Origin: Octopus sinensis
Lineage: Eukaryota
DNA: 64,000 bases
Reading direction: 5' to 3'
NCBI RefSeq assembly: GCF_006345805.1
Contig: NC_042998.1
Span: 10,974,001 to 11,038,000 of the forward strand
The notes beneath the pieces are model-generated. The model was not told where the DNA came from and searched no databases. It saw nothing but the letters and a program-made list of their open reading frames with translations. Of the stretch, positions 9,580 to 47,471 are shown piece by piece. The position numbers and the translations under genes are program-made. The stretch's first letter is position 1, and every line of letters begins with the position of its first letter.

Positions 9580-9993
9580 AGGCGGGGAGCTGGCAGAAAC
9601 GTTAGCACGCCGGGCGAAATGCGTAGCCGTATTTCGTCTGCCGCTACGTTCTGAGTTCAAATTCCGCCGAGGTCGACTTTGCCTTTCATCCTTTCGGGGC
9701 GATAAATTAAGTACCAGTTACGCGCTGGGGTCGATGTAATCGACTTAATCCGTTTATCTGTCCTTGCTTGTCCTCTCTGTGTTTAGCTCCCTGTGGGTAG
9801 TAAAGAAATAGGTATTTCGTCTGCCATTACGTTCTGAGTTCAAATTCCGCCGAGGTCGACTTTGCCTTTCATCCTTTCGGAGTCGATAAATTAAGTACCA
9901 GTTACGCGCTGGGTCGATGTAATCGACTTAATCCGTTTGTCTGTCCTTGCTTGTCCCCTCCATGTTTAGCCCCTTGTGGGCAATAAAGAAATA
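9580..9993 (+). mobile_element. SINE family B with a tandemly duplicated 183 bp body
   Basis: GTATTTCGTCTGCC at 9629 and 9812. Confidence 0.9.
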
Positions 9994-10654
9994 TATATTT
10001 AAAGGAGTTAGCTTTGTTTCAGGTATGCATATCAGGTCTCCAAACTGAGGATTAATAGATATCTTGCTATGCGGCTTTCTACAGCAACAGCCAACTTACG
10101 AGTCATAGTTTCTTTCTATTCCCTCTCCCTGATAAGGTTCATACAAAAATTATGGTGTTCATCTTTCCTTATATCAATAAACCATGACAAAATATAAACA
10201 AATATTGTCCATTAAAATGCATACCACGTGTTTATTGTTAGTTCTAAATTTTAAGACAGTATATTCGCTAATGCAAACAAAATGCCAATAGTCAGCTATG
10301 CAAATTCAATAATAATTAAGTCAGCGCCTTTCATGGAATTCTGACTGAGGATCAATCAACTGCAAATGTTATAACAACAAAAATCGGAGCTATATTAATA
10401 ATTTCACGTTCTATAATTATAATTTAGCAAATTAAAACCCGAGAAAAAGGAATAGAATATTTAAATATGAAAATATAAAGCGTAAACAAATAATCTCAAA
10501 ATGTAAAATTAACAGAACGGAAAGAGTAGAGACCTGAAGAATAGAAAGATTTATTGAAACAAGATATGAAATTTTATATTGATTTCTTAAATTGGAACAA
10601 GGTTATAAATTCCAAGAATTGATGTGCTTGACTATATCGTATCGAGTCAGAATT

Positions 10655-29940: not shown

Positions 29941-29976
<36 letters not shown>

Positions 29977-30019
29977 CAATAATAATTCTCTAAATGAGAT
30001 ATAGACAGTGACTGCTCCG

Positions 30020-30219
30020 TAATATAAGGGATATTAGCCAACCGAATATGGCTAGGAACAGGGCAGGGTAGTGGGGGTGTCACTGTTGCATTTAGCCCCA
30101 GGCGAACATCAACGTCAGGCCTATCTGGTGACATTGATGTTCGCCTGGGGCTAAATGCAACAGTGACACCCCCACCACCCTGCCCTGTCCCTAGCCATAT
30201 TCGGTTGGCTAATATCCCT

Positions 30220-30226
<7 letters not shown>
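30020..30226. repeat. Near-perfect fold-back (98 bp arms, 11 nt spacer)
   Basis: 30020-30117 is the reverse complement of 30129-30226 with about 3 mismatches. Confidence 0.95.
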
Positions 30227-32006: not shown

Positions 32007-32399
32007 TCTATATAAAAGTGAAGTTGTGTGCTGTCTGTCTCCTACGATTTAGATTCCTAACTACTCCCACATTTTGCGGTGCAGTTTAACCAAACCCGGG
32101 TATCTTATAGTCGTGATTCATATCGAGCCCTTCTGGGTATTAGCGCGCGTCTACGATGAGTCTACGAATTAAAAAAAAAAATTACCATCAATTTTTCCCA
32201 TTTTTAATGCATTTGCGGCATATATAAGGGAAGTAACTCTCTAAAAATTTATTATTAAATCTCAGAACGTAAAAAGCTACAGTAACACCCCTCCTTTGTG
32301 GTTAGCCATATTGAGATGGCTATTATACTTTACATCTCTAAAAATGCTTATATAGTTATTTCCCTTACAAACCCGAGCAACGCCGGGCGATACTGCTAG
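32007..32399 (+). mobile_element. Non-autonomous Helitron
   Basis: 5' TCTATATAAAA, subterminal hairpin CCCGAGCAACGCCGGG, 3' CTAG followed by T. Confidence 0.8.
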
Positions 32400-40565: not shown

Positions 40566-41320
40566 GAGCGAGCTGGCAGAAACGTCAGCACGCCGGGCGA
40601 AATGCGTAGCCATATTTTGTCTGCCGTTACGTTCTGAGTTCAAATTTCGCCGAGGTCGACTTTGCCTTGCATCCTTTTGGGGTCGATAAATTAAATACCA
40701 GTTACGCACTGGTTTCGATCTAATCGACTTAAGCCATTTGTCTGTCCTTGTTTGTCCCCTCTGTGTTTAGCCCTTTGCGGGCCGTAAAGAAATAGGTATT
40801 TCGTCTACCGCTACGTTCTGAGTTCCAATTCCGCCGAGGTCGACTTTGCCTTTCATCCTTTTGGGGTCGATAAATTAAATACCAGTTACGCACTGGGGTC
40901 GATCTAATCGACTTAATCCATTTGTCTGTCCTTGTTTGTCCCCTCTGTGTTTAGCCCCTTGCGGGTCGTAAAGAAATAGGTATTTCGTCTGCCGCTACGT
41001 TCTGAGTTCAAATTCCGCCGAGGTCGACTTTGCCTTTCATCCTTTTGGGGTCGATAAATTAAATACCACTTACGCACTGGGGTCGATCTAATCGACTTAA
41101 TCCATTTGTCTGTCTTTGTTTGTTCCCTCTGTGTTTAGCCCCTTGTGGGTCGTAAAGAAATTGGTATTTCGTCTGCCGCTACGTTCTGAGTTCAAATTCC
41201 GCCGTGGTTGACTTTGCTTTCGATGAAACAAGTACCAGTTACGCTCTGGGGTCGATGTAATCGAGTAACCCCCTTCCCCCAAAATTTTCAAGGCCTTGTA
41301 CCTAGAGTAGAAATTATTAT
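40566..41320 (+). mobile_element. SINE family B with about four tandem 184 bp bodies
   Basis: Unit starts at 40612, 40796, 40980 and 41164. Confidence 0.92.
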
Positions 41321-43655: not shown

Positions 43656-45665
43656 TGTATGTATGTATGTATGTCTATCTATCTGTGTGTGTGTGTGCAT
43701 TCACATATGTATGTGGTCTTTCCCTTTTTTGAATTTATAATAAATTTTGGTCGGCCGCCTGCTTGGTAGCAAGGCTGTGAAGGAAAGGATCTTGTTGTAT
43801 GTACGTATATATGTATGCATGCTTGTATGTATGTATGTATGTATGTATGTATGTATGTATGTACGTATGTATGTATGGCATTATTATAACAATGAGCAGA
43901 TGTATGTATCACGTGTTACCTCTGTAAATTACTAAAGAATGTGCAAAACACTATCACCACTAGCGCCTCTCTCTCCCTTATTCTCTTTCTGTCTGTATGT
44001 TTGTCTCTCTCCCTCTCTATTTGACTCACTCATGAGTACCAATGGTACTTCAATTTATATTTCCATTTTTTCTAAACTGCGCATTCTTTTTAATCCTGGC
44101 ACGATAATTTGTCACTTGATGGTAAAATAGAAGTTAAGCTCTTTATAGAAATATTACATTTTATGAACACTTAATCCCAACATAAAAACAAGGTGCCTCA
44201 CCCAGATTCGATGTTAGCCACAAATAAATTAAATTCAACTTTTTTCAACGCAATGGGGTAACAGATATTATAATCACCAATTTTGGGATGAAAAGAGATA
44301 CAGGGCTACATCTACATTACTCCCACTTAAGCCTAATGCTCCACGTTATTTATACTGAGCACGACTAAACTACAGTTTACATGATAATATATAGGCTATA
44401 GGCCCTTCTGTCCGTAAACCGACTTCTTAGAAATGCAGTCAAAAGAAATTCTAGGTGAATTAGGGTTTCAGTTGAATGTCGTAATGCTATTTTAATAGTT
44501 TCTTTCTCCTAGGCTTGGGAACTAATCGATTGAAAGATTCTTATATAATGATCATAACTTTTGAGAGCATATGGCGACCAAGAAGCAGAGAGGCGATGCC
44601 GTTTGTTTTGTGTGTTGAATGGCATTTTAAAGACAGGCAAACAAATAAATAAATGACTAAGAAATAGTAAACGCACGCAATCTGAAGTAGTTGAAAAAAA
44701 AATGTAATATATACACAAACCGCAGAAAAACACAGTGAGATGCTATGTTAGTAGTATTTTATTGCAACTCGTTACAGATAAGCAAAACCAACAACTGTCA
44801 TCTTTTCTGTTTGACATCGGTGGTTGACCGACTCGGAAAAGATTTGACAGAGCAACAAATTGTAGCAGCATATCTAAAATAGTATTTGAATATCTATTCA
44901 AATATACGTAACTGAGCGATGGGAAAAATGTTTTCTCAAGATTTCGACATTTAAAACTATGTTGCTGCGATATACATTTCAACAAACTCTTTGACAATAC
45001 TAGATAATACTTAGATATTTTTTCGTTAAGTAGTTTGATAATCATTGCATTGTTTGTACTCGGATGTAATCGATCCATTTGCTAATTGATAGTAATTTTC
45101 AGAAAAAGAGTATTGCATATATAACTTCTCTCTTGTCCGCTTTATAAAGTTGATATTCATTGTCTTTCTTCAGCAGACCTTTTTAGTATTTCCCCTGGCT
45201 CTCCGGGTTCTGTGTTCAATCCTTGTCGCGGTCAAGTTTGTCATTCGCTCGTATGATCTAGGAATCAATAAATTTTGCTTCTACACATTGTTATGTTTAT
45301 GATATTTTCGTTCCTGAAAGTTTAAATCATGTGTTAACCTCCCGACACCACAATCTGTGACGCTTCACTTTACTTCCCCACAGATGTTGTCGTGTATCTT
45401 AACTTTAGGTCAGCTCTGATCAGACGTACCTGATCAGAACGCATTTCAATAATAATTTGTTTTTTCAGATGCAATGTAACATGGATTATATTATTCAATG
45501 TGCCTTTGTCGTGGTGCAGTATATCTCCGACGAAAAATTAACTATTATTTCTAGTTGGTCGTGCAACGTCAAAGAAACTCCATCGTTGGCTTCTTTTGAT
45601 TTTGCTGAATTTAGATTTGGATGATGCAGAAACCTATTGCTGACAATGTTTAGAAAATCTACAAC

Positions 45666-46206
45666 AGAAACTCGGGTCCGTGTGTATCACGTCAGGCTGG
45701 AGATGGGAACGATGACTTCCCTTTGCAAATACTGATATGGCACATACAGTGTGTCAATAGCCAGCTGCAGGAGATGTCTACCTGGGGCTATAAGCTACAG
45801 TAGCATCAACCCTTAAGGGTTAGCCACATTTAGGTGGCAAATATACTTCACGATATCGTGCAGCTACTGTTTATACCTCGCTCAGAGATTTATTATTGCT
45901 AGTTTTCACTTTTTCGAGAGCTGTGATTTTCGTCACTGGAAACAGTACATATATATTTGCATTGAGAATCATTTCCCCGCCAACCGGTGGTTGTCACACG
46001 CTGATGACGGGTCAATACCCAGAAACTCGGGTCCGTGTGTATCACGTCAGGCTGGAGATGGGAACGATGACTTCCCTTTGCAAATACTGTTAGGGTACAA
46101 ACATTGTGTCAATAGCCAGCTGGAGGAGATGTCTTCCTGGGGATACAAGCTACAGTAGCATCAACCCTTAAGGGTTAGCCACATTTAGGTGGCAAATATA
46201 CTTCAC
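45666..46206 (+). mobile_element. About 1.5 copies of a 355 bp HHR-bearing monomer (retrozyme-like)
   Basis: 45666-45851 is repeated at 46021-46206. Complete HHR at 45995-46039 and the 3' half of a second HHR at 45666-45684. Confidence 0.85.
45995..46039 (+). ncRNA. Type I hammerhead ribozyme, canonical core
   Basis: CACACG-CTGATGA-CGGG-TCAATA-CCCA-GAAA-C-TCGG-GTC-CGTGTG. Confidence 0.88.
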
Positions 46207-46873
46207 AAAGAAATAATAATTTTAGGGCAAGAAAACTGCGAGAGAACGTGGTTAGCATGGAAAAAGCAGAAACAGAGTGGCACACAAAAGAACGGAACTA
46301 AAAAACGAATACACGATAATGGAAGAGAAAGAAACATAAAACTTGAATAAGAAGAAGTAGTAACCGGTGGAACTAAGATAACAGTGGTTATAATTATATA
46401 TAATGGGAAAGGAGTGCTGTAGGGAATAGAAAGTTGAGCGTTTTCAGATGATCAGCCAAACTAGTTATAGGCTGTACTTTGTGAGTTACATGCACAATAA
46501 TCCTGCCAGCGTCTTCACTCTTGAGCCATCGGACACAGCCGTATGATTAAAACCATTTAGTTATGCATGTCTCTTCACATCCTGCAAAGATCAAAAACTA
46601 AATGTAGCATGTCCCGTAAGTACTCCATCATACTTGAAGAGAGTCATCAACACCCAAAATCTAGATAACGTTTAATCAGCACTGCAACTACTGCAAGGTC
46701 ACTAACTGAACCGCTTCAGTTAATCAGCAATTCTTGTCATTTGACAAAATGATAATCAGCAATTTTGCAGAACTTTTTTCCTTCTACATCATTTCTCAAA
46801 TTCTGAGAGAAAAACTGCGGTACAAAAAAGTCTTTGCTTCTGCTGACTGCATGATATACAACTCTAACCTGCA

Positions 46874-47471
46874 TACACTTGATAAATTTTCTCAAAAAAT
46901 GTCCCTTTCTAACCACCAGATTCAGCTTCTTGTATACACTCTATGTCACGCTGGTGAGACCCATATTGGAGTACGGGATTCAAGTCTCTTCTCCTTATCT
47001 CCTCAAAGACATACAGCATCTCGAAAGAGTCCAGAAGCTGGCTACCCGCATGGTTCTTGGACTCAAGAATTTGTCTTATGAAGAAAGGCTGAAGACGCTC
47101 AACCTTTATTCTCTAGAAAAACAACGACACCGTGGTGATCTCATTCTTGCTCACAGCATCATAAGCGGAAAGTGTAACTTCTCGAAAGAGCTATTCTTCA
47201 CTCCTGCTCCAGAGCGTCGGCTGCGGGGTCACTCCGAAGAGCTCTATCTGCGACGATTTCATCTCAATCGAAGGAGAGGGACTTTCTCCGTCCGGGTTGC
47301 GGATCTGTGGAATAAGCTGCCAGACGAGATGGTGAAGATGCCGACGACCGCTCGGTTCAAGTGGCCTGAACTCTTTACATGAACACCACCCTGTACATAA
47401 CTCCATGTCCCCCTACATGGCCTTGCTTTTTGCTTTTTGAGCCAAAAAATTAACTAACTAACTAACTAACA
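46874..47471 (+). mobile_element. 3' end of a CR1-clade LINE
   Basis: LYVTLVRPILEYG..SPYL.KDIQHLERVQKLATRMV.GLKNLSYEERLKTLNLYSLE..R.RGDLI..FSVRVADLWNKLP, then an (AACT)n tail. Confidence 0.93.

What the first reader, a model, noticed from the sequence alone, without database searches (positions are those of the whole stretch)
45666..46206. 355 nt monomer bounded by two hammerhead cleavage sites: best circular-RNA candidate
Seen: a 186 bp direct repeat with an exact 355 bp period. The first copy starts inside the ribozyme (AGAAACTCGGGTCCGTGTG) and the second has the full canonical HHR with a GUC triplet. The unit also contains palindromes and hairpins (AACCCTTAAGGGTT, GCCACATTTAGGTGGC, CACGATATCGTG) and no convincing ORF. 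Inference: a 1.5-mer is what reverse transcription around a 355 nt circle, or of a partial-tandem pLTR transcript, would leave.
Basis: partly seen in the sequence, partly recalled or inferred. Interest (0 to 1): 0.8.

Follow-up and report, generated by a model that had tools for sequence, protein, structure and literature searches.

The report
Old copy of a hammerhead retrozyme
This is an aged 1.5-unit copy of a hammerhead-ribozyme repeat found at many places in this genome, whose copies end at two fixed points like Penelope retrotransposons and were likely reverse-transcribed from a small circular RNA, and one spot in the repeat holds repeated insertions of an unrelated LINE.

Summary
The repeat is real: 186 bp, 355-bp period, 10 differences. 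Only one complete hammerhead exists (45995-46039); the upstream site lacks the catalytic core. The locus is one aged copy of a large dispersed non-LTR retrozyme family. Copy ends are not circularly permuted: 235 of 279 arms stop at two 3' points about 42 nt apart, often at (TA)n, and head-to-head arms pair one short end with one long end in 41 of 44 cases. That is the Penelope-like 'tail' signature, so a Penelope-type RT likely moves it in trans; no coding body or partner was found. A circular template is favoured, not shown: 27 of 27 copies read through the cut site, and units within young multimeric insertions agree at 94 of 95 diagnostic sites. Transcripts of homogeneous arrays remain possible. 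A younger 353-nt sister subfamily is the better circRNA candidate. Unexpected: L1/Tx1-type LINEs insert just upstream of the ribozyme with a 16-bp duplication (23 of 26 LINE ends). New member of a known kind; interest 0.5.

The parts
45665..46206 (+). Whole retrozyme insertion, 542 nt, about 1.5 units (unit positions m342 to m355, m1-355, m1-173; m1 = 45679)
   Evidence: 3' flank 46207-46460 found only here; no target-site duplication visible
45665..45678 (+). 5'-truncated remnant of the upstream hammerhead: GAAA, self-complementary loop-III octamer (45670-45677) and GUC triplet (45676-45678); no catalytic core
   Evidence: predicted cuttable only by the downstream core
45679..46033 (+). 355-nt cut-to-cut unit, the predicted circle; non-coding, structured, ends brought together by stem I in the family fold
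45739..45869 (+).
   Evidence: role as RT-binding element is inference
45851..45856 (+). Site S (m173-178): first preferred 3' end of family copies, inferred RT start
   Evidence: 120 of 279 arms end in m165-180
45857..45900 (+). Optional 40-44 nt 'tail' ending at site T (m218-222), inferred second RT start
   Evidence: 115 of 279 arms end in m205-224
45982..45997 (+). 16-bp LINE target site (m304-319), empty in this copy, duplicated around LINE insertions in other copies
45995..46039 (+). Complete type I hammerhead: stem I 45995-46000/46034-46039, core 46001-46007, stem II 46009-46012/46017-46020 over a C-A mismatch, GAAA 46022-46025, self-complementary octamer 46025-46032, predicted cut after 46033
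   Evidence: cleavage untested
46034..46206 (+). Second partial unit m1-173, ending in the S cluster 5 nt short of its peak

Best explanation
The locus is an aged, 5'-truncated copy of a dispersed non-coding hammerhead repeat (a non-LTR retrozyme) that was likely written into the genome by a Penelope-like reverse transcriptase copying about 1.5 times round a predicted 355-nt RNA circle. Shown: the family, the two fixed 3' ends, scattered 5' ends, AT-rich targets, head-to-head arms with one short and one long end, read-through of the cut site, and uniform units within young insertions. Inferred: multimeric transcripts self-cleave as double hammerheads through the palindromic loop III; monomers are ligated; a Penelope RT-endonuclease nicks AT-rich DNA and primes at site S on one strand and site T on the other; synthesis stops at random. 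Here only an S-type arm is seen, and each unit has since gained five private changes in 186 nt.
For: Family: matches on most of the large contigs, 231 exact copies of a 26-nt core, 1073 of a sister motif. Ends: 235 of 279 arms at S or T; 41 of 44 pairs S+T, 37 of 40 after collapsing one segmental duplication, p about 1e-8; young set 47 of 49 arms and 13 of 15 pairs; (TA)4 at 119 of 235 3' junctions against 12 of 232 controls. These match the published Penelope tail and two internal RT starts (PMC8557442, PMC3846280, PMC11167929). Young intact RT+GIY-YIG elements with their own two 3' ends at (TA)n exist in this genome. For a circle: 27 of 27 copies retrieved with m1-61 run through the cut site; arms reach 7.1 units with fresh S/T junctions; 94 of 95 locus-by-site comparisons agree where 54.6 mixed were expected; the window's two units share all four minority alleles they carry. 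For ribozyme selection: three different perfect loop-III palindromes and a compensatory stem I pair.
Against: No RNA evidence of a circle or of cleavage. Uniform units are also expected from transcripts of a homogeneous array. Some arrays grew locally after ageing (L016, L020 share 28 and 42 private changes), and L284, L286 and L276 hold variants in only some units. In vitro, a Penelope RT uses uncleaved linear RNA and needs no hammerhead cleavage (PMC11167929). Both active folds of this copy lie about 9 kcal/mol above the free minimum. No autonomous partner with shared sequence was found in 38 Penelope-type loci. 44 of 279 arms end elsewhere and 27 of 71 pairs have one such end. All locus sets were chosen by similarity to a query, best hits first.
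Confidence: 0.6

Rival explanations
1. Same retrozyme family and same Penelope-type RT, but the template is a linear, uncleaved read-through transcript of a homogeneous tandem array; no circle is needed.
For: Unprocessed RNA was the dominant substrate in vitro (PMC11167929). Arrays can be homogenised or extended locally (L016, L020, L286). Partial-unit variants occur (L284 site 53 in 3 of 7 units; L276 site 300 in 2 of 3). L227 has LINE and other sequence between its two arms, which may reflect a longer linear template.
Against: Palindromic loop III is kept through compensatory changes, so multimers should cut themselves; partly cut templates should leave 5' ends at m1, and 0 of 27 do, 1 of 49 young arms. 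No shared upstream flank other than LINEs, SINEs and microsatellites among 129 arms. 5' truncation can only shorten arrays, yet fresh 7-unit arms exist.
Confidence: 0.3
2. The repeat is the pseudo-LTR of a coding Penelope element and this locus is a truncated 3' end of it.
For: Tail, inverted arms and targets are those of Penelope elements (PMC8557442).
Against: Upstream of a unit lies another unit, an inverted arm, flank or a LINE, never a shared RT-GIY-YIG body. The 3' regions of Penelope ORFs examined show no similarity to the unit; hits are neighbouring copies in independent orientation.
Confidence: 0.04
3. A single unit was inserted and the 186-bp repeat arose later by local tandem duplication.
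For: Such local duplications occur in this family (L016, L020). The 10 differences cluster in 57 of 186 nt, unexplained.
Against: The two units share no private change, only four common subfamily alleles, and each carries five private ones, so they diverged at about the time of insertion; the 3' end is a standard S end; 1.3 to 3-unit copies are common (a search that favours them).
Confidence: 0.06

Closest known systems
Metazoan non-LTR retrozymes (mussel 350-390 nt, axolotl 330/350 nt, coral 220-245 nt; Cervera and de la Pena 2020, PMC7229834)
   Same: Non-coding 350-nt unit, type I hammerhead, tandem copies, structured monomer; like axolotl HHR_Amex2 it has a 2-bp helix III with tetraloop and a mismatch at the base of helix II.
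   Different: Circles and cleavage were shown there, not here. In the parts read, insertion ends, tails and two-armed insertions were not described; Penelope mobilisation was proposed from co-occurrence.
Penelope-like elements, EN+ clades (PMC8557442, PMC3846280, PMC11167929)
   Same: 5' truncation, inverted 5' arm, 30-40 bp tail at one end only, (TA)n targets, hammerhead upstream of two RT start sites.
   Different: No ORF; the whole element is one repeated unit; tail is 40-44 nt; no sequence link to a coding family found.
Retrozymes as non-autonomous PLE derivatives (bioRxiv 10.64898/2026.07.22.740005)
   Same: Same conclusion on origin and mobiliser.
   Different: That work used co-occurrence and pLTR phylogeny, mostly in vertebrates, and requires two complete hammerheads for an active copy; this locus fails that criterion. 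Evidence here is insertion anatomy.
Target-specific Tx1-clade LINEs (Tx1L in Tx1D, Tx1-Mar and SINEU in Mariner-N4; PMC4494074)
   Same: LINEs that insert at one site of another transposon, with tandem copies separated by a 16-bp duplication.
   Different: The target here is a retrozyme, next to its ribozyme; clade not placed on a tree.

Membership tests
non-LTR retrozyme | Type I hammerhead motif in a 150-450 bp repeat unit | tested here: met
   (motif and covariation); Rfam models do not detect it
non-LTR retrozyme | Multi-copy, tandem, non-coding, no LTR body | tested here: met
non-LTR retrozyme | Two complete hammerheads at the locus (active copy) | tested here: not met
   one core in the window; met by other family loci such as L013, L026 and the young arrays
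non-LTR retrozyme | Highly self-paired monomer | tested here: met
   z -3.7 window, -6.4 young unit; family fold, with a small covariation term
non-LTR retrozyme | Self-cleavage and accumulation as circular RNA | not testable with these tools
   only assembled contigs of runs guessed to be RNA were available
Penelope-mobilised element | Two fixed 3' ends (tail) and scattered 5' ends | tested here: met
Penelope-mobilised element | Inverted 5' arm with tail on one end only | tested here: met
   41 of 44 and 13 of 15 pairs; the window copy itself has a single arm
Penelope-mobilised element | Identified autonomous partner sharing the cis element | tested here: inconclusive
   candidates exist but share no detectable sequence; 38 loci examined
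autonomous Penelope-like element | RT + GIY-YIG ORF attached to the repeat | tested here: not met
Tx1-clade target-specific LINE (the inserted elements) | More than 20% of flanks in one target sequence, with TSD | tested here: met
   23 of 26 3' ends of one family, 20 of 23 without seed loci; both-end TSD in L224, L225, L228, L230
Tx1-clade target-specific LINE (the inserted elements) | RT phylogeny within Tx1 | not tested
   domain layout zf-CCHC / APE / RT / zf-RVT and one homologue named Transposon TX1 at 35% only

The most novel reading that the evidence does not exclude
These insertions are genomic fossils of rolling-circle target-primed reverse transcription: a Penelope RT dimer primes one ribozyme-made RNA circle at two fixed sites, one per DNA strand, and runs round it up to seven times; the same retrozyme superfamily is the dedicated landing site of Tx1-type LINEs that insert beside the hammerhead, and the youngest subfamily has altered that site.
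Probability: 0.45. Interest if true: 0.72.

Novelty: new member of a known kind. Interest (0 to 1): 0.5.

Why it matters
Which enzyme mobilises animal retrozymes, and whether the circle is the template, are open questions that have been argued from co-occurrence and phylogeny. This family carries the Penelope insertion signature directly and gives exact predicted RT start sites on a 355-nt RNA, a young sister subfamily and young intact Penelope ORFs in the same genome, so the question becomes testable in vitro. The strict short-plus-long pairing of arms constrains how a Penelope RT dimer treats the two DNA strands. A LINE lineage that targets a retrozyme would be a new target class. The locus itself is one probably inactive copy among many.

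Tried and rejected
Rfam: no gathering-level match in the window and no hammerhead at E up to 5 in 45000-47000. Idea that m300-304 is a pLTR start preceded by a Penelope body: rejected, the upstream sequences are LINE 3' ends. Idea that copies pile up at exactly one unit length: arm lengths show no clear peak and depend on the query. Partner search: L302 looked like a Penelope with an inverted retrozyme pLTR, but the copy is a neighbour at a (TA)n tract and the ORF family has its own different 3' end; nhmmer over 38 Penelope-type loci found only neighbouring copies. Expression: no RNA holder listed; contigs of runs guessed to be RNA cover the element and not its flanks, some bridging the cut site, but they cannot show strand, circularity or source locus, and are not used as evidence. 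One search used wrong coordinates and is uninformative (redone). One search failed on stop codons and was dropped. ESM Atlas gave only generic RT names. No earlier scan notes matched. No target-site duplication could be read at this locus and the empty site was not recovered (5' flank not searched in the genome).

Full report
Numbering: m1 is window 45679, the base after the upstream GUC; the unit is m1-m355.

OBSERVATION. The repeat is as described: 45666-45851 and 46021-46206, period 355, 10 mismatches in 186 nt, all between offsets 69 and 125. One complete type I hammerhead lies at 45995-46039, predicted to cut after 46033; stem II sits on a C-A mismatch and stem III has 2 bp under a tetraloop. 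The upstream copy holds only the GAAA, the loop-III octamer and the GUC. Constrained folding shows the downstream core could pair with the upstream GUC in a double-hammerhead-like junction; this fold and the cis fold tie at -174.7 kcal/mol against a free minimum of -183.9 (the double-hammerhead model is recalled, and dimer activity is described in PMC7229834). So two scissile sites are possible, with one core. Rfam does not detect the motif. The unit folds better than all 100 shuffles and has stops in all three sense frames.

FAMILY. G000 (2.7 Gb) gave 4437 first-look candidates, 40 scored, spread over many contigs; a 26-nt core has 231 exact matches. A sister subfamily, 76% identical, has 1073 exact motif matches, a 353-nt period and arrays up to 7.1 units at 97% unit identity. 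More distant relatives are detected by a profile built without them (E 3e-9 to 2e-5 for 4 of 9 stretches; best shuffle E 2.6). The host is probably a cephalopod; that is a recalled impression, not tested.

ENDS OF COPIES. From 221 fetched loci (195 distinct, 291 arms, 279 used after dropping arms under 40 nt or at a locus edge), 120 arms end in m165-180 (site S, peaks 178 and 173) and 115 in m205-224 (site T, peaks 218 and 222); 44 end elsewhere; 5' ends are scattered. Of 71 head-to-head pairs, 44 have both ends at S or T: 41 S+T, 2 S+S, 1 T+T; five S+T rows are one segmental duplication, leaving 37 of 40 (p about 1e-8). In 31 sister-subfamily loci, 47 of 49 arms end at S or T and 13 of 15 pairs are S+T. 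A (TA)4 run lies at 119 of 235 3' junctions against 12 of 232 control positions. This is the Penelope pattern: 5' truncation, inverted 5' copy, a 30-40 bp tail at one end, microsatellite targets (PMC8557442 and PMC3846280, passages), explained in vitro by two internal RT start sites with both strands nicked and extended (PMC11167929, parts 1-2 of 4). The window copy is a single S-type arm. All sets were chosen by similarity to a query, so length distributions are biased; the position of 3' ends is not set by the queries.

PARTNER. GIY-YIG matches are numerous (147 of 150 scored). Two families have intact 775-781 aa RT+GIY-YIG frames with a cysteine motif before the nuclease as described for Neptune/Nematis (PMC8557442; not placed on a tree). 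One is very young (40 of 40 scored hits near 100%) and ends at two points about 30 nt apart next to (TA)n (14 and 16 of 30 loci). Neither shares detectable sequence with the retrozyme. No unit is preceded by a Penelope body: among 129 arms without an inverted partner, shared upstream sequence was LINE, SINE or microsatellite. The mobiliser is thus inferred as a class, not identified.

CIRCLE OR LINEAR. For a circle: copies retrieved with m1-61 all continue past the cut site (27 of 27 distinct loci), and 1 of 49 sister arms starts within 10 nt of it. In 25 young insertions, at five sites that segregate between loci, 94 of 95 multi-unit comparisons are uniform (31 uniformly minor) where 54.6 mixed were expected; rare variants are shared by all units and in some cases both arms (L291, L287, L285). 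The window's units share four minority alleles and differ only by private changes, five each; in 78 of 88 older loci units are closer to each other than to the average other locus. Loop III occurs as three perfect palindromes (43, 31 and 17 of 200) plus the wobble form (66); 91 of 200 are strict palindromes against a shuffle mean of 47.5, a control that ignores relatedness; one stem I pair switches A-U to G-C in 31. The family fold joins the two ends of the unit through stem I. Against: uniform units also follow from a homogeneous source array; L016 and L020 were extended locally after ageing, and L284, L286, L276 have variants in only some units; the Anolis RT used uncleaved RNA (PMC11167929). 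Template jumping on one cleaved monomer would look the same as a circle. I put the circle at about 0.6, a linear array at 0.3. Circles were shown for mussel, coral and axolotl retrozymes (PMC7229834, parts 2-4 of 6).

LINE TARGETING. The excess of 5' ends near m300-304 is due to LINE insertions. Four loci show the unit split with m304-319 duplicated on both sides (L224, L225, L228, L230); three LINE 3'-end families occur; domains are zf-CCHC, APE, RT and zf-RVT, and one of 120 listed homologues is named Transposon TX1 (35%). Searching with one family's 3' end gave 42 matches, 30 fetched; after dropping three duplicates and one without a 3' end, 17 of 26 are followed by this family's target (in three cases then by another LINE), 6 by the matching region of two distant relatives, 1 is ambiguous and 2 are not: 23 of 26, or 20 of 23 without the three seed loci. 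Tx1 elements that target other transposons are known (PMC4494074, passages). One search for Tx1 with hammerhead and one on Tx1 targets listed nothing on retrozyme targets; most subscription papers and Repbase were not searchable. The young subfamily differs at the target and no LINE was seen in its 31 loci; escape is a guess, since the LINE copies are old.

COMPARISON AND VERDICT. It works like, and at family level meets the testable criteria of, a metazoan non-LTR retrozyme; this locus fails the two-ribozyme criterion for an active copy (bioRxiv 10.64898/2026.07.22.740005, part 1 of 5 and passages; supplements not seen, so its species list is unchecked). Searches for cephalopod hammerheads or retrozymes listed no description (listings only). 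The class is known and the locus ordinary; the insertion anatomy and the LINE targeting are the new parts. New member of a known kind, interest 0.5.

Noticed in passing
L224, L225, L228, L230, L304-L333; target is window 45982-45997: At least three L1/Tx1-type LINE families insert just 5' of the hammerhead with a 16-bp duplication; one family also uses two distant relatives of the retrozyme and forms tandem copies at the site.
   Followed up: yes
L264-L297, e.g. L284:1786-4292, L286:848-3636: Younger 353-nt sister subfamily with canonical stem II and perfect loop-III palindrome, arrays up to 7 units; the best target for circRNA tests. Its LINE target site is altered.
   Followed up: yes
window 29975-30225 and 32272-32337: A head-to-head pair (one long end, one short end, (TA)n on both sides) and a fragment of distant relatives of the same superfamily.
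   Followed up: partly
window 19788 (-), 20263 (-), 20784 (+): Three copies of a different small hammerhead motif with a 7-bp stem I, two in one orientation and one inverted.
   Followed up: no
L302, L334-L363; L298-L303: Two Penelope-type RT+GIY-YIG families with intact frames; the L302 family is near-identical across copies, has a variant hammerhead-like motif in its 3' region and two fixed 3' ends.
   Followed up: partly
L284 unit position 53: Variant alternates between units (G,G,A,G,A,G,A), which could reflect a dimeric template or later duplication of a two-unit block.
   Followed up: no
L308, L311, L315 (family 2); L310 (family 3): Distant retrozyme families keep the same hairpin series with a shorter loop-III palindrome.
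   Followed up: partly
window 45735-45791 versus 46090-46146: All 10 differences between the two units fall in 57 of 186 nt; unexplained.
   Followed up: partly
window 40613-41221 and 9629-10000; 46937-47469; L223:506-5939: Tandem arrays of a 184-bp interspersed repeat; a repeat fragment shared with other loci; a 165-bp tandem array of over 30 units next to a retrozyme copy.
   Followed up: no
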